Shown here piece after piece: positions 15,301 to 29,835 of a stretch of DNA of 32,000 nucleotides. This DNA is from an uncultured archaeon (lineage in GTDB: Archaea; Asgardarchaeota; Thorarchaeia; Thorarchaeales; CAZPUN01). A model generated the notes under the pieces. That model was not told the origin of the DNA and made no database searches. It saw only the letters and a program-made list of their open reading frames with translations. Made by a program: the position numbers and the translations under genes. Location of the stretch: assembly GCA_964589775.1 (NCBI GenBank), contig CAZPUN010000004.1:9737-41736 (forward strand), read 5' to 3'. Position 1 is the first letter of the stretch. Every line of letters begins with the position of its first letter.

Positions 15301-18300
15301 TTATAATAATATTTCTCTACTCTCGATTTTTACAGTATGTTTTGTTCCATCTTCTTCTGTAAACTCTACGAAGCCCATTAGTGTAGCTCTTTCTACTGGT
15401 GGTATTATCATCTCTAGTGTTGCTACAGCTGAATCCTTCGGATTGATATGTGAAATGTTATCACTGCGAATCTCTGTAGAGACGTCTGGTATTCCAACAA
15501 CAATTTTTACATCTTTTATCTTGTGTTCGCTTTTGTTACGTATTGCAACAGGAATTATCAAAGTACGGTCTCTTAATCGTGTTTCTATAGCTATCTCGAT
15601 CAATTCTGGTTTTGCAGCTTCTGTTGCTTTACTAATTAGTACTTTTCGCATATGTCTCTTATATTGAATGAATGCAATACCAACTATTATTGATATAATA
15701 ATTATTACTATTATTGTTGGAATTTGCCATGGAATATTTGGTTGCCAATCTTGTCCATCTAGAATACCATCGTTATCTGTGTCTGGGTTCTTTGGATCTG
15801 TGCCTGTATGTATCTCATCATAATCACTCAGGCCATCATTATCGGTATCCGGGCTCAATGGATTCGTATGGTATATGTTTACTTCTTGGAAATCAGTCAG
15901 GCCATCATTATCAGTATCCGGGCTCAATGGATTCGTATGGTATGTAAGTACTTCTTCTCCATCTAATAATCCATCATCGTCTGTGTCCGCTATCTTAGGG
16001 TCTGTATTGTATTGGAATATTTCCTGATAATCTGTGAGCTGGTCTGCATCAGTATCTTTAAAATTCGGGTTTGTCTGATATACTTTGATTTCATCGTAAT
16101 CGCTTAATCCATCTTTATCAGTATCATTTGATATTGGGCTCGTATAATATGTTTTTACTTCATCATAATCACTTAGTTTATCATTATCTGTATCATTGCT
16201 AATTGGACTTGAATGGTATGTAAGTACTTCTTCTCCATCTAACAATCCATCATTGTCCGTATCTGGAATCAACGGATCTGAATGATTTTGGATTTCTAAA
16301 CCGTCTAATAATCCATCGTTATCCGAGTCGTCATCAATTGGGTTTGTATGATATATTCTTAGTTCTTCACCGTTGCTTAATCCATCGTTATCCTTGTCAT
16401 AATCATAATCGCTGACATTGTTTCCCATTGTACTCCATTTTGTAGGATCTGTGAATGTTAATTTCACTTCTTCATAATCCGATAGACCATCTGAATCTGT
16501 ATCATTGTTTAGTGGTGATGTATTTATTGAAATCTCATATCCGTCTGTGAGATTATCATGATCTGAATCTGGATTCAATGGGTCTGTATTGTATGTCTTG
16601 ATTTCAGCATAATCTGATAAAGTATCGTTGTCTGAGTCTGCAAGCAATGGGTTTGTATGGTATATTTTTACTTCGTCTCCATTAGTCAGCCCATCATTAT
16701 CATTATCGTCACGATAATCATTTATTCCGTTTCCATCTGTATCCTTATTTCTTGGATTTGTTTTTGTAATGTATAACTCTTCATAATTTGTCAGCAAGTC
16801 ATGATCAAAATCTTCCATATCGTCGCGGATTCCATCTGAATCGGTATCATTGTTTCGTGGATTTGTCTGTGTATATCGAATCTCTTGAATATTTGTAAGG
16901 CGATCTCCATCTAAATCTGCATTTCCATCTGCGGTTCCTTGTATTGCGCTATCCCACACTGTTGGATTCGTTAAAGTTATTGTTATTTCTTCATAATCAC
17001 TTAATCCATCGTTATCTGTATCGTTTGATAATGGGTTTGTATGGTACTGTATAACTTCAGGGTAATCGTAAATCATATCGCCGTCTGTGTCTGGGTTCCA
17101 TGGATCTGTTCCATAAATGACAACTTCTTGCCCATCTGTAAGATTATCATTATCGCAATCTGGATTCAAAGGATCGGTATTGTATAATATAACTTCATCA
17201 TAGTCATATAATGCATCGCCATCAGTGTCATTTGAGGCAGGATTTGTTCCATATTTGTTTACTTCATCACCATCTGTAAGATCATCGTTATCTGTATCTA
17301 TATTGTGTGGATTTGTGTTGTAAATTCGAACTTCTTGAAAGTCATCTAAGCCATCATTATCAGTATCATTCTTTGTAGGATCTGTTCCAATTTGGATTTC
17401 CTCATAGTCTGAAAGATGGTCTCCGTCTGTATCCCAATTTGTACAATTTGTTTCATATAGGTGAATTTCATCAAAGTTTGTAATGTTATCAGCATCTTGG
17501 TCATCCAAATTATCTGGAATACCATCATCATCGGTATCATTGTTTAATGGATTTGTTTTAGTAAGCTTCACTTCCTCATAATCTGATAATTCATCGCCAT
17601 CGGTATCATATTTTAATGGGTCTGTTCCATATTTGTTGATTTCATCATAATCGTTTAGGCCATCAAAATCAGTATCTGGATTCTTGGGATCTGTCCCATG
17701 GCTAAGTTCATAACCATCGTTTAAGCCATCTCCGTCTGTGTCTGCATTGGTTGCATTTGTACCGTATGTGAAAATCTCATCGTAATCTGAAATTGTATCG
17801 TTATCCGTATCATTTGTTGTCGGGTCTGTCTTGTAAATTTTTATTTCTTCTTGATCGCTTATGTGGTCTGAATCTGTGTCTTGTTTTAATGGGTCCGTGT
17901 GATATTTTGATACTTCATTATAATCTGAGATTCCATCGCCATCGGTATCTTTGTTTAATGGATTTGTATTGTATTGAAATATTTCATCATAATCTGTAAG
18001 ATTATCATTATCTGAGTCTGCCAGCGTTGGATTTGTATGATATGTTTTGATTTCGGTACCATCTGCAATTCCATCATTGTCTGAATCAATATCCGTTGGA
18101 CTAGATCTATATATATAGACTTCATCATAGTCTGAGATTCCATCACCATCAGTATCGTTTGATAATGGATCTGTTCCAATGCTAATTTCATATCCATTAC
18201 TTAGCGAATCGTTATCCAAATCCTTATCATAATCATTGATTCCTGTATTTCCTGTATCTGGATTTGTTGCGTTTAATCCAAGATTTATTTCGACACCATC

Positions 18301-28698: not shown

Positions 28699-29835
28699 CT
28701 ACTCAATAGCCTCCTTTCTCCAAAATACTATTAATGAAAATAAGGAACTTGCAAAGCAAAATATTATCAGTCGTATTATTTTATCTCCTATGTCCCAGAG
28801 TGACAATCCTTTAAATGCGGTTGATAATAGTATATCTTTTGCTAAATTCATTGGTAGCCAATTATTTAATTCTCCTACATCTATGAAGAACCCTGATAAT
28901 ATTAATGTAGCAAACATAAGAAATAGAAATGCTTGATTTGCTTGTAATCTAGAATTGCTTAATGTAGAAATCAAAATTCCAGTTGTTGAGCCAGATAATG
29001 CTGATAATGCCATGATTATTGTTAATGTCAGAAAATCAGTATTTAATGAAATATCAAACATATTTATCCATAGGGCTACAAGAACTATCGACTGTAGGAA
29101 TCCTAAGAATAGATATGCTGTAATTTTGGCAATCATCACTTCCATTTTAGTTGTGGGTGTTAATAACATTCTTCGTAATGGTACATCACCTACAATCGCC
29201 TGTGCTGCAGTCATGGTGATTCCTAAATAACTTGAAAAGACACAGATAAATCCACCAAACTGTGCTGCAGTATAATCGCCTTTAGGCTGAAATTCAATGA
29301 TCGGATATGGTAAGATTTCAGATCGTATCCAACCATGATGAAGTCTAAACATCATATTTGCAGTTTCTACACCCGCAATTACCTTCATTTGTGTGAATAG
29401 GTCTGTGGCCGAAACATGAACTTCCACATAAGTCTTAATATTTTCTGTTAAATTATGTTCAAATCCATCAGGTATAACTATATATCCATCTATTTTATAG
29501 TTGTATAAATCCCAATACGCTTTTGATTCATTATTGTACATTATGATGTAAAAATCTCCATATTCTCTAAGCGCTGCAGTGTAATTTTCAGACAAATCCT
29601 GACCCGGAAAGTCTGTTGTTGTATCTAAATCCAAAACCCCTACAACTTTTCCGCCAGTACTACCCATGCCGGGTGGCGGTGCACTTTGACCTACAACTAT
29701 ACTTAGTGATATCATTGACACAAAAGGAAGTAAAAATATCATTACAAGCGCCATTTTATCTTTTGCAATTGTTCTTAGTTCTTTTTTAAAAAGTGACCAT
29801 ATTCTCCTATATGGTTTCATCAAAATTTCGGCCAA
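28699..29835 (-). CDS. ABC-2 type transporter permease (YhhJ/NatB-like)
   Basis: LFKKELRTIAKDK followed by TM1, an extracellular domain (VGVLDLD...IDGYIVIPDGF), RMLLTPTTKMEVMIAK and five more TM helices. The ORF track starts at 29862, but TTG at 29835 is preceded by GGAGG and is the more likely start. Confidence 0.92.
   Translation of the reverse strand: MAEILMKPYRRIWSLFKKELRTIAKDKMALVMIFLLPFVSMISLSIVVGQSAPPPGMGSTGGKVVGVLDLDTTTDFPGQDLSENYTAALREYGDFYIIMYNNESKAYWDLYNYKIDGYIVIPDGFEHNLTENIKTYVEVHVSATDLFTQMKVIAGVETANMMFRLHHGWIRSEILPYPIIEFQPKGDYTAAQFGGFICVFSSYLGITMTAAQAIVGDVPLRRMLLTPTTKMEVMIAKITAYLFLGFLQSIVLVALWINMFDISLNTDFLTLTIIMALSALSGSTTGILISTLSNSRLQANQAFLFLMFATLILSGFFIDVGELNNWLPMNLAKDILLSTAFKGLSLWDIGDKIIRLIIFCFASSLFSLIVFWRKEAIE

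What the first reader, a model, noticed from the sequence alone, without database searches (positions are those of the whole stretch)
15301..29835. Candidate undescribed surface-assembly/export system: ABC permease, sugar-domain ATPase, dead S1P-like subtilase, second ATPase and giant Ca-binding adhesin in one coupled operon
Seen in the sequence: five co-oriented genes whose junctions are a 12-nt gap (RBS overlapping the stop), a 17-nt overlap, a 1-nt TAATG overlap and a 3-nt gap, which points to translational coupling. The two large membrane proteins are interleaved with the transporter subunits rather than flanking them. Established: in Bacteroidota, GldA (ATPase), GldF (ABC-2 permease) and GldG (GIFT-domain membrane protein) form an ABC-like unit needed for gliding and surface-protein function. 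O-antigen exporter Wzt ATPases can carry a fused carbohydrate-binding domain. Inference: this is an archaeal, probably Asgard, Gld-like machine in which a pseudoprotease/GIFT protein serves as the extracellular accessory subunit or chaperone, a sugar-binding-like domain regulates the ATPase, and the heavily sequon-bearing 2196-aa protein is the client or effector. I do not know of a described system with this composition.
Basis: partly seen in the sequence, partly recalled or inferred. Interest (0 to 1): 0.88.

Follow-up and report, generated by a model that had tools for sequence, protein, structure and literature searches.

The report
Asgard ABC machine with dead-protease partner
A Thorarchaeota (Asgard archaeon) operon joins an ATP-driven ABC-2 membrane transporter to a large surface protein that looks like a protease but cannot cut and is predicted to clamp onto one of the transporter's motors, and to a giant calcium-binding surface stalk; the set is strictly conserved but what it does is still unknown.

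Summary
Five minus-strand genes (15301-29862) have exactly the junctions described: a 12-nt gap, a 17-nt overlap, a TAATG overlap and a 3-nt gap. They encode an ABC-2 permease, an ABC ATPase with a TrmB-like N-domain, a 1395-aa S8 pseudoprotease with a GIFT domain, a second ATPase, and a 2196-aa propeller/TSP3 protein.

The organism is a Thorarchaeote. Gene order is kept in 42/43 (upstream) and 51/51 (downstream) testable Thorarchaeota loci.

The four-gene core (permease, two ATPases, S8-GIFT) recurs without the giant gene in other Asgard families. The giant is therefore a Thorarchaeia add-on, not the reason the machine exists.

The protease is dead across the family: oxyanion Asn is Asp in all, and the nucleophile column varies.

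New here:
- The pseudoprotease's cytoplasmic tail is predicted to dock on ATPase1's N-domain (ipSAE 0.72, best control 0.00) through the invariant residues of both.
- The two features co-occur in the same four Asgard families.

It resembles GldAFG in composition but is not a member. The substrate and any role of the giant as client are untested. This scan found the same cluster in at least seven other genomes, with like verdicts. I found no published description.

The parts
28699..29862 (-). ABC-2 permease (P0001, 387 aa; the likely start may be TTG 29835 or ATG 29820). TM1, an extracytoplasmic loop of about 145 aa, then five more TM helices.
   Evidence: PF12698 ABC2_membrane_3, E 1.6e-24. 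TM scan. Orthologues 48-56% identical in Thorarchaeota and 27-46% in other Asgard families.
27043..28686 (-). ABC ATPase 1 (P0002, 547 aa): TrmB-like N-domain, NBD with intact Walker A, signature, Walker B and H-loop, and a C-terminal regulatory domain.
   Evidence: ABC_tran 2.5e-30 and Regulator_TrmB 3.5e-9. Motifs read. DrrA subfamily is the best NCBIfam match, below its cut-off.
27991..28686 (-). N-domain of ATPase 1 (aa 1-232): two tandem beta-rich units. It is the predicted docking site for the pseudoprotease tail.
   Evidence: PF11495 matched in 17/17 orthologues, profile positions 162-230 only. AF2 pLDDT 83. Foldseek matches TrmB 3qph_A (2.1e-5) and 2f5t_X (4.8e-5). Interface residues 9, 11-16, 18-19, 26, 109, 111 coincide with invariant columns of A5.
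22872..27059 (-). S8-GIFT pseudoprotease (P0003, 1395 aa). It has an N-terminal hydrophobic anchor or signal, a heavily sequon-bearing ectodomain, a C-terminal TM helix and a cytoplasmic helical tail.
   Evidence: It has 31 N-x-S/T sequons against 14.9 +/- 3.7 expected.
25710..26648 (-). Dead S8 domain (aa 138-450): Asp147 kept, His replaced by Arg190, oxyanion Asn replaced by Asp284, nucleophile Ser replaced by Ala389.
   Evidence: Profile alignment to Tk-SP 3afg fixes the nucleophile column. Motif columns in 23 family members.
24909..25676 (-). Beta-super-sandwich domain (aa 462-717) like the N-domains of GH15, GH94 and GH116 enzymes.
   Evidence: VIA-align Z 22.5, rmsd 3.0 A over 230 residues to glucodextranase 1ug9. 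Weak Glucodextran_N hits in 3/13 orthologues.
23535..24227 (-). GIFT (GATase1-like) domain, about aa 945-1175.
   Evidence: IFT52_GIFT in 13/13 orthologues (best 5.5e-11), DUF4350 in 12/13, ABC_transp_aux in 12/13, MBTPS1_4th in 3/13. Profile hit to IFT52 5fmr_A, E 1.7e-8. Foldseek matches S1P 8uw8_A at 6.7e-9 and OST48 6s7t_G at 1.3e-7.
22875..23189 (-). C-terminal TM helix (aa 1291-1313) and conserved cytoplasmic helical tail (aa 1314-1395).
   Evidence: TM scan. Invariant D1340, N1344 and A1348. Predicted contacts at 1333-1352. Tail conserved in families f1, f2, f12, f19 and f7.
21895..22872 (-). ABC ATPase 2 (P0004, 325 aa): NBD with intact motifs plus a C-terminal domain.
   Evidence: ABC_tran 2.1e-27. 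DrrA and GldA models matched below cut-off. Nearest solved NBDs are ABCA3/7/4/1, E 6e-59 to 1e-50. Orthologues are 62-65% identical in Thorarchaeota.
15301..21891 (-). Giant surface protein (P0005, 2196 aa): signal peptide, beta-propeller (about aa 45-400), about 60 TSP3-type Ca-binding loops (aa 403-2045), TM helix (2057-2075) and a 121-aa cytoplasmic beta-rich domain (nt 15304-15666).
   Evidence: Pfam. 62 D-x-[DN]-x-[DN] motifs, 65 sequons against 37.2 +/- 5.0 expected, and TM scan. Size and order conserved in Thorarchaeota. Tail domain not found with this query in five genomes of f12, f19, f7 and f9.
15219..15245 (-). Terminator-like hairpin (11 pairs) followed by a T-run. It is the probable 3' end of the five-gene transcript.
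13872..15161 (-). Soluble TPR protein (429 aa). It is a syntenic neighbour downstream of the giant gene, probably its own transcription unit.
   Evidence: Pfam. No TM helix in the sequence. Found within 1.5 kb of the giant's end in 21/36 testable Thorarchaeota loci at tblastn E<=1e-8.

Best explanation
This is a conserved Asgard four-component ABC-2 (type V, ABCA/DrrA-like) machine.

Composition:
- One permease with a large outer loop.
- Two different, catalytically competent ATPases that presumably form an NBD heterodimer.
- A membrane-anchored accessory subunit whose ectodomain is a dead subtilase, followed by a glycosidase-type beta-super-sandwich, Ig-like domains and a GIFT domain.

The accessory subunit crosses the membrane once more at its C-terminus. 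Its conserved cytoplasmic helix is predicted to clamp onto the TrmB-like N-domain of ATPase 1, so the ATPase cycle and the ectodomain would be physically coupled.

In Thorarchaeia a giant, N-glycosylated, Ca-binding stalk protein with a distal propeller and its own cytoplasmic domain has been added to the same transcript. It most likely works with the machine at the cell surface.

Shown: gene order, domain identities, loss of the catalytic residues, phyletic co-occurrence, and a model-supported interface.

Inferred:
- The machine uses ATP either to export a lipid or lipid-linked glycan handed to the sugar-type ectodomain, or to move that ectodomain.
- The dead protease cleft serves as a binding site.
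- The giant protein is a partner or target.
For: Order and coupling:
- Junctions of -17 to +12 nt.
- Same order in 12/12 relatives, and in 42/43 and 51/51 Thorarchaeota loci.

Core beyond Thorarchaeia:
- f12 keeps permease-ATPase1-S8GIFT-ATPase2.
- f19 has ATPase1-permease-ATPase2 divergent from S8GIFT.
- L092 and L094 have permease-S8GIFT flanked by both ATPases.
- f7 keeps both parts on different contigs.

Dead protease, family-wide: AAGD replaces AAGN in all 21 family members, and the nucleophile column is A/T/V/S/L/F/G. Two non-family S8+GIFT proteins (P0036, P0039) keep GHGTH, AAGN and GTS.

GIFT domain.

Both NBDs have intact motifs, and the nearest solved NBDs are the ABCA lipid exporters.

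Docking:
- ipSAE 0.72, 0.73 and 0.53, best of 3 controls 0.00. That mark was reached by 58 of 80 solved complexes and 2 of 110 mismatched pairs. Partner pLDDT at least 77; the runs share at least 21% of contacts.
- The contact residues F9, E11, Y14, F15, R19, W26 and N109, and D1340, N1344 and A1348, are invariant or nearly invariant columns.

Phyletic profile in the same 151 Asgard genomes:
- N-domain: f2 27/27, f12 17/19, f19 6/6, f7 5/5, 0 elsewhere.
- S8-GIFT: f2 26/27, f12 17/19 (the same 17 genomes), f19 6/6, f7 5/5.
- The two loci whose S8-GIFT has only a short basic tail (L092, L094) carry a different N-domain on ATPase 1, four wHTH repeats.

Sequon excess only on the two predicted surface proteins.
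Against: - No substrate, transcript or protein data.
- The interface is a model's confidence, made with my own shallow alignments (17 and 13 rows), not a measurement.
- The phyletic co-occurrence rests on only four or five independent lineages.
- f9 has a tail-like helix but no TrmB-like N-domain.
- The AF2 model of the ectodomain is only moderate (pLDDT 66), and the GIFT part is its weakest.
- One permease gene with two different NBDs is unusual, and the stoichiometry is unknown.
- Nothing links the giant protein to the machine except synteny within one class.
Confidence: 0.6

Rival explanations
1. It is an ordinary ABC-2 exporter of a lipid, lipid-linked glycan or small molecule. The S8-GIFT protein is merely a glycan-binding or scaffold neighbour, and the giant protein is an unrelated surface protein carried along in the operon.
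For: The NBDs are of the DrrA/ABCA type. ABC-2 systems are best known for exporting lipids and lipid-linked polymers (established knowledge: Wzm/Wzt, TarGH, ABCA). The core exists without the giant gene. In f7 the S8-GIFT gene is unlinked from the ABC genes. Glycosidase-type and GIFT domains are present. Galactokinase, GH38 and OST3/6 genes lie nearby in some lineages.
Against: The predicted tail-to-N-domain docking uses the invariant residues, and the strict co-occurrence argues for a physical subunit rather than a neighbour. The giant gene is kept in 51/51 testable Thorarchaeota loci, with 3-4-nt junctions or overlaps.
Confidence: 0.2
2. One reading: a GldAFG-type gliding or surface-protein machine whose client is the giant adhesin. 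The transporter would assemble, export or move the 2196-aa protein.
For: The composition is an ABC-2 permease, ATPase and GIFT membrane protein. GldA is the second-best NCBIfam model for ATPase 2. The genes are co-transcribed in Thorarchaeia with tight junctions. The giant has a cytoplasmic domain that could be engaged from inside.
Against: GldA scores are 154 and 110 bits against a cut-off of 402.6, and there is no GldF or GldG hit. The giant protein has its own signal peptide and TM anchor, so it needs no ABC exporter. The core is older and wider than the giant. The role of GldAFG itself is unknown, so the analogy predicts little.
Confidence: 0.15
3. The S8 protein is an active, unconventional protease (S1P-like) that processes the giant protein or other surface proteins.
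For: Asp and His are retained in most members, and the motifs around the cleft are highly conserved. One orthologue (L021) even has Ser at the nucleophile column.
Against: The nucleophile column is A/T/V/S/L/F/G across the family, and the oxyanion Asn is Asp in all. In this window His is also Arg. A residue that varies like this is not under selection as a nucleophile.
Confidence: 0.04

Closest known systems
GldA/GldF/GldG of Flavobacterium (Bacteroidota), and the generic 'ABC-type uncharacterized transport system' with a GldG-type auxiliary protein (Pfam PF09822, COG3225)
   Same: An ABC-2 permease plus ABC ATPase plus a membrane protein with a GIFT/GATase1-like ectodomain anchored at both ends. 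The function of that unit is also unknown.
   Different: There are two different ATPases instead of one. The auxiliary protein is fused to a dead subtilase, a glycosidase-type beta-sandwich and a cytoplasmic docking tail. The permease is of the PF12698 type with a large loop. None of the GldA, GldF or GldG equivalog models is reached. The host is archaeal, with no T9SS.
Eukaryotic site-1 protease (MBTPS1/SKI-1; PDB 8UW8, 9CSD)
   Same: The domain order is pro-region, S8, beta-sandwich, GIFT, TM, cytoplasmic tail (PMC11231238). Foldseek gives E 6.7e-9 over 412 columns for the non-catalytic part. MBTPS1_4th is matched in 3/13 orthologues and above threshold in relative P0022.
   Different: The catalytic Ser and oxyanion Asn are lost. 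The post-S8 domain is a 255-aa GH15N-like super-sandwich plus Ig domains rather than the 138-aa P-like domain. The tail is a long helix, not short and basic (except in L092 and L094). By sequence the S8 domain is nearest to archaeal Tk-SP, not S1P. It works with an ABC transporter.
IFT52 and OST48/Wbp1 (other GIFT-domain proteins)
   Same: The GIFT domain. IFT52 is the closest solved relative by sequence profile (5fmr_A, E 1.7e-8), and OST48 matches by fold (6s7t_G and 7oci_G, E about 1e-7).
   Different: The partners and cellular sites are entirely different. Only the one domain is shared.
ABCA-family lipid exporters and prokaryotic DrrA/ABC-2 ATPases
   Same: NBD sequence (ABCA3 E 6.4e-59; DrrA model 209 and 197 bits). 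Both have a TM1-large-ectodomain-TM2 layout, two non-identical NBDs and C-terminal regulatory domains.
   Different: The polypeptides are separate. There is one permease gene. The permease has no detectable sequence relative among solved structures.
TrmB sugar-sensing regulator (PDB 3QPH, 2F5T)
   Same: Half of the ATPase 1 N-domain matches the C-terminal subdomain of TrmB's effector domain by sequence (PF11495, 17/17 orthologues) and by fold.
   Different: There is no DNA-binding wHTH, and the part of the effector domain N-terminal to the matched subdomain is missing. Here the unit is duplicated, fused to an NBD, and predicted to bind a protein helix.

Membership tests
GldAFG gliding-associated ABC transporter | ATPase reaches the GldA equivalog model TIGR03522 (cut-off 402.6 bits) | tested here: not met
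   P0004 scores 154.3 bits and P0002 110 bits. DrrA subfamily scores higher for both.
GldAFG gliding-associated ABC transporter | Permease and auxiliary protein reach the GldF and GldG equivalog models | tested here: not met
   No GldF or GldG model is listed at E<=0.01 for P0001 or P0003:440-1395. The best permease hit is the permease part of RbbA, at 40.9 bits.
GldAFG gliding-associated ABC transporter | Auxiliary membrane protein with an ABC_transp_aux/GIFT ectodomain between terminal TM helices, encoded with an ABC-2 permease and ATPase | tested here: met
   PF09822 in 12/13 and PF23355 in 13/13 orthologues. N- and C-terminal hydrophobic helices. Synteny.
GldAFG gliding-associated ABC transporter | Required for gliding or T9SS-dependent surface functions | not testable with these tools
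   This needs genetics, and the host is an uncultured archaeon.
GIFT domain (GldG/IFT52/OST48/S1P) | Significant sequence match to GIFT profiles and a matching fold | tested here: met
   IFT52_GIFT best E 5.5e-11, 13/13 orthologues. PDB profile hit to IFT52, 1.7e-8. Foldseek matches S1P and OST48. In the window's own protein the single-sequence hits are weak (E 0.02-0.04).
Peptidase S8 (active subtilase) | Asp-His-Ser triad and oxyanion Asn | tested here: not met
   In the window: D147 kept, R190 for His, D284 for Asn, A389 for Ser. Across the family Asn is Asp and the Ser column is variable. The fold and family match are met (PF00082, E 7e-43).
Site-1 protease (MBTPS1) orthologue | S8, beta-sandwich, GIFT, TM and tail architecture, with specific sequence affinity to S1P | tested here: inconclusive
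   The architecture and the fold of the non-catalytic part match, and MBTPS1_4th is matched in a minority of members. However, the S8 domain's best solved relatives are Tk-SP and subtilisins. Active bacterial or archaeal S8+GIFT proteins also exist (P0036, P0039). No phylogeny was made.
TrmB effector-binding domain | Full two-subdomain sugar-binding domain | tested here: not met
   Only profile positions 162-230 of 233 are matched. Foldseek aligns 103-111 columns. The part of the domain N-terminal to these positions is not matched.
ABC ATPase, catalytically competent | Walker A, Q-loop region, LSGG signature, Walker B D-E, H-loop | tested here: met
   P0002: GESGAGKST, LSGGQQ, LILDEP, THY. P0004: GTSGAGKTT, LSGGER, LFLDEP, SHD (read). 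All are conserved in A5.
TSP3-type Ca-binding repeat protein | Tandem D-x-D-x-D-G loops matching PF18884 | tested here: met
   E 4e-217 with 35 stretches. 62 motif instances. Ca binding itself was not tested.

The most novel reading that the evidence does not exclude
The cluster is an ATP-driven, inside-out surface machine. The NBD heterodimer grips the cytoplasmic tail of the S8-GIFT protein, and perhaps the cytoplasmic beta-domain of the giant protein. It would use the ATPase cycle to move or switch a glycan- or peptide-binding ectodomain that controls a 2196-aa propeller-on-stalk adhesin. That would be a prokaryotic counterpart of integrin-like inside-out activation. Its accessory subunit would belong to the lineage from which eukaryotic site-1 protease and other GIFT proteins arose.
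Probability: 0.15. Interest if true: 0.85.

Novelty: new variant of a known kind. Interest (0 to 1): 0.62.

Why it matters
Asgard archaea are the closest known relatives of eukaryotes, and almost nothing is known about how their cell surface is built.

- This module is single-copy in each genome that carries it and near-universal in Thorarchaeia and three further Asgard families.
- It ties an ABC motor to a protein laid out like eukaryotic site-1 protease, with the GIFT domain otherwise known from IFT52, OST48 and GldG.
- The function of the GldG-type auxiliary proteins has been open since GldAFG was found. A system with a concrete, testable contact between the auxiliary protein and an NBD gives a handle on it.
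- If the giant Ca-binding stalk is really operated by the machine, it would be a new kind of archaeal adhesion or surface-remodelling device.

Tried and rejected
- Permease against solved structures: no hit at E<=1.
- NCBIfam for the propeller and the giant's cytoplasmic tail: no family.
- Atlas feature search of the tail: best named hits are adaptin/coatomer appendage clusters at 0.81-0.85, below the 0.9 mark. This is a lead only.
- Giant's cytoplasmic tail in five genomes of f12, f19, f7 and f9: not found with this query.
- Pfam on the middle region 455-950: nothing for the window's protein, only weak Glucodextran_N and CARDB hits in a few orthologues.
- Literature: no paper holding GIFT + Asgard + IFT52. 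Nothing relevant turned up for S1P + Asgard, Thorarchaeota surface/ABC/subtilisin or thrombospondin/integrin + Asgard.
- Rejected idea: conserved glycosylation neighbourhood. Galactokinase recurs near the cluster in the window, L092 and L094, and OST3/6 recurs in L092 and L094. Neither is within the sequenced flanks (4-10 kb either side of the cluster) of the 12 closely inspected Thorarchaeota f2 loci or the other loci tested, so it is not part of the system.
- Rejected idea: T1SS-like export of the giant protein. ABC-2 permeases are not protein translocators, and the giant has its own signal peptide.

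
Full report
**Observation.** The window (GC about 0.34) carries five co-oriented minus-strand ORFs at 28699-29862, 27043-28686, 22872-27059, 21895-22872 and 15301-21891.
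- a 12-nt gap with GGAGG overlapping the permease stop;
- a 17-nt overlap (GTG...TAA);
- a TAATG overlap;
- a 3-nt gap behind GGAGG.

Upstream lie a tRNA-Ala on the other strand and unrelated pterin genes. Downstream lie a terminator-like hairpin with a T-run (15219-15245) and a soluble TPR gene.

**Identities.**
- The permease is PF12698 ABC-2, with one TM helix, a loop of about 145 aa, then five more TM helices.
- Both ATPases have intact Walker A, signature, Walker B and H-loop motifs. They are of the DrrA/ABC-2 kind, and their nearest solved relatives are the ABCA lipid exporters.
- ATPase 1 carries a 230-aa N-domain. It matches the last 70 positions of the TrmB effector-domain profile in 17 of 17 orthologues. 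It folds with pLDDT 83 into two similar beta-rich units. TrmB (3qph, 2f5t) is its only significant structural match.
- The 2196-aa protein has a signal peptide, a beta-propeller, 35 Pfam TSP3 stretches (about 62 Ca-loop motifs), a TM helix and a 121-aa cytoplasmic domain.
- Sequons are in clear excess on the two surface proteins (31 vs 14.9 +/- 3.7; 65 vs 37.2 +/- 5.0) and not on the cytoplasmic ones.

**The pseudoprotease.** The S8 domain matches PF00082 at 7e-43. The profile alignment to Tk-SP (3afg) fixes the nucleophile column at Ala389. I read the motif columns in 21 members of the family, drawn from six Asgard families and from metagenomes:
- The oxyanion Asn is always Asp.
- The nucleophile column is A, T, V, S, L, F or G.
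- Asp is usually kept.
- His is kept except in this window's lineage (Arg190), in f9 (Arg) and in one f2 orthologue, L018 (Pro).
- Two S8+GIFT proteins outside the family keep the canonical motifs.

So the loss is old and family-wide.

After the S8 domain come, in order:
- a beta-super-sandwich like the N-domains of GH15, GH94 and GH116 enzymes (Z 22.5 to 1ug9);
- Ig-like domains;
- a GIFT domain (IFT52_GIFT 13/13, DUF4350 12/13, ABC_transp_aux 12/13, MBTPS1_4th 3/13; IFT52 by PDB profile at 1.7e-8);
- another Ig-like domain, a TM helix and a conserved helical tail.

The non-catalytic part matches S1P (8uw8_A, E 6.7e-9) and OST48 by fold. The published S1P structure has the order S8, P-like sandwich, GIFT, TM, tail (PMC11231238). 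The AF2 model is moderate (pLDDT 66).

**Who has it.**
- All 67 loci found in species genomes are Thorarchaeota or unclassified Asgard MAGs.
- The window's genome is a separate family of the same order.
- Order is kept in 12/12 closely inspected relatives, and in 42/43 and 51/51 testable loci. The one exception is L045.
- The TPR gene follows in 21/36 loci.

In a sample of 151 Asgard genomes the non-protease part occurs in f2 26/27, f12 17/19, f19 6/6 and f7 5/5, weakly in f9 (3/25), and in none of about 21 other families. The arrangement differs by lineage:

| Lineage | Arrangement |
|---|---|
| f12 | The four-gene core in the same order, followed by a Ras-type GTPase rather than the giant |
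| f19 | ATPase1-permease-ATPase2, divergent from the S8-GIFT gene |
| f7 | The same ABC trio on another contig |
| L092, L094 (AT-rich) | Permease-S8GIFT flanked by both ATPases, with other accessory domains |

The giant's tail domain was not found outside Thorarchaeia with my query. The core is therefore older and wider than the giant gene.

**Coupling.** I asked whether the S8-GIFT tail meets ATPase 1. The complex prediction of ATPase 1 aa 1-235 with the tail aa 1314-1395 gave ipSAE 0.72, 0.73 and 0.53, against 0.00 for all three controls. That mark was reached by 58 of 80 solved complexes and 2 of 110 mismatched pairs. Partner pLDDT was at least 77, and the runs shared at least 21% of contacts. 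The model supports binding but does not show it, and my own shallow alignments were used.

Two independent observations agree with it:
- The contact residues are the invariant or nearly invariant columns on both sides: F9, E11, Y14, F15, R19, W26 and N109, and D1340, N1344 and A1348.
- The N-domain occurs as a single copy in exactly the families that have the tailed S8-GIFT, including the same 17 of 19 f12 genomes and f7, where the genes are unlinked.

In addition, the two loci with a short basic tail have a different N-domain on ATPase 1. f9 is an exception: it has a tail-like helix but no N-domain.

**Mechanism.**
- Shown: a conserved, tightly packed gene set; two competent NBDs; a dead protease with sugar-type and GIFT ectodomains.
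- Supported by model and phyletics: the accessory protein is tethered to NBD 1.
- Inferred: the ATPase cycle either exports a lipid or lipid-linked glycan that the ectodomain receives, or moves the ectodomain. The former protease cleft serves as a binding site. In Thorarchaeia the co-transcribed giant stalk is the partner.

I cannot tell export from mechanotransmission with these tools.

**Comparison and novelty.**
- It resembles GldAFG and the generic GldG-type 'uncharacterized ABC transport system' in composition, but it fails the equivalog models.
- It differs in having two NBDs, the dead S8 fusion and the docking tail.
- It resembles S1P in layout, but orthology is inconclusive.
- I found no published description. 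Eme et al. 2023 report OST48/WBP1 homologues only in Heimdallarchaeia (PMC10307638), which is a different matter.
- This scan had already reported the same cluster from at least seven other Thorarchaeota genomes, with the same verdicts. My tests reproduce them on a different family.
- I cannot tell from the short summaries whether the tail-to-N-domain docking and the co-occurrence are new.

I rate it a new variant of a known kind, of moderate to high interest.

Noticed in passing
window 4254-8325 (-); L092:1-451 and 2664-3266; L094:1002-2195 and 2412-2981: A GH38 alpha-mannosidase and a galactokinase lie 7 kb from the cluster. A galactokinase and an OST3/OST6 gene also sit within 10 kb of the distant S8-GIFT/ABC loci L092 and L094, but not in the Thorarchaeota f2 loci.
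   Followed up: partly
window 9388-12570 (+): A 1060-aa protein with an N-terminal GNAT acetyltransferase domain and about 900 aa with no Pfam match.
   Followed up: no
window 30007-30079 (+): tRNA-Ala (TGC) sits between the operon's upstream region and a folE2/PTPS pair (30079-31351, -). The folE2 ORF end abuts the tRNA.
   Followed up: no
window 15304-15666 (-), P0005 aa 2076-2196: The cytoplasmic beta-rich tail of the giant protein has no Pfam or NCBIfam family. Language-model features place it nearest to unnamed archaeal clusters (0.88-0.90) and, more weakly (0.81-0.85), to adaptin/coatomer appendage domains.
   Followed up: partly
L021:7354-11739 (+): One Thorarchaeota orthologue has Asp, His and a Ser at the nucleophile column (TTSSSAAIVAG), while the oxyanion position is Asp as in all others.
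   Followed up: partly
L095:6604-7128 (-) and L095:71-4498 (+): In family f12 a Ras-family small GTPase gene directly follows ATPase 2, where Thorarchaeia have the giant gene. A second 1475-aa S8 protein with a split S8 match lies 2.7 kb further on.
   Followed up: no
L045 (CP070658.1, 2049359-2072055): This is the only testable Thorarchaeota locus without the permease and ATPase 1 upstream. The S8-GIFT match there also starts late. It may be a rearrangement or an assembly problem.
   Followed up: no
L094:13839-15095 (-) and L092:14100-15320 (-): In the AT-rich distant lineages ATPase 2 carries a C-terminal extension with two CxxC...CxxC zinc-ribbon-like motifs, and ATPase 1 carries about four wHTH-like repeats in place of the TrmB-like domain.
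   Followed up: partly
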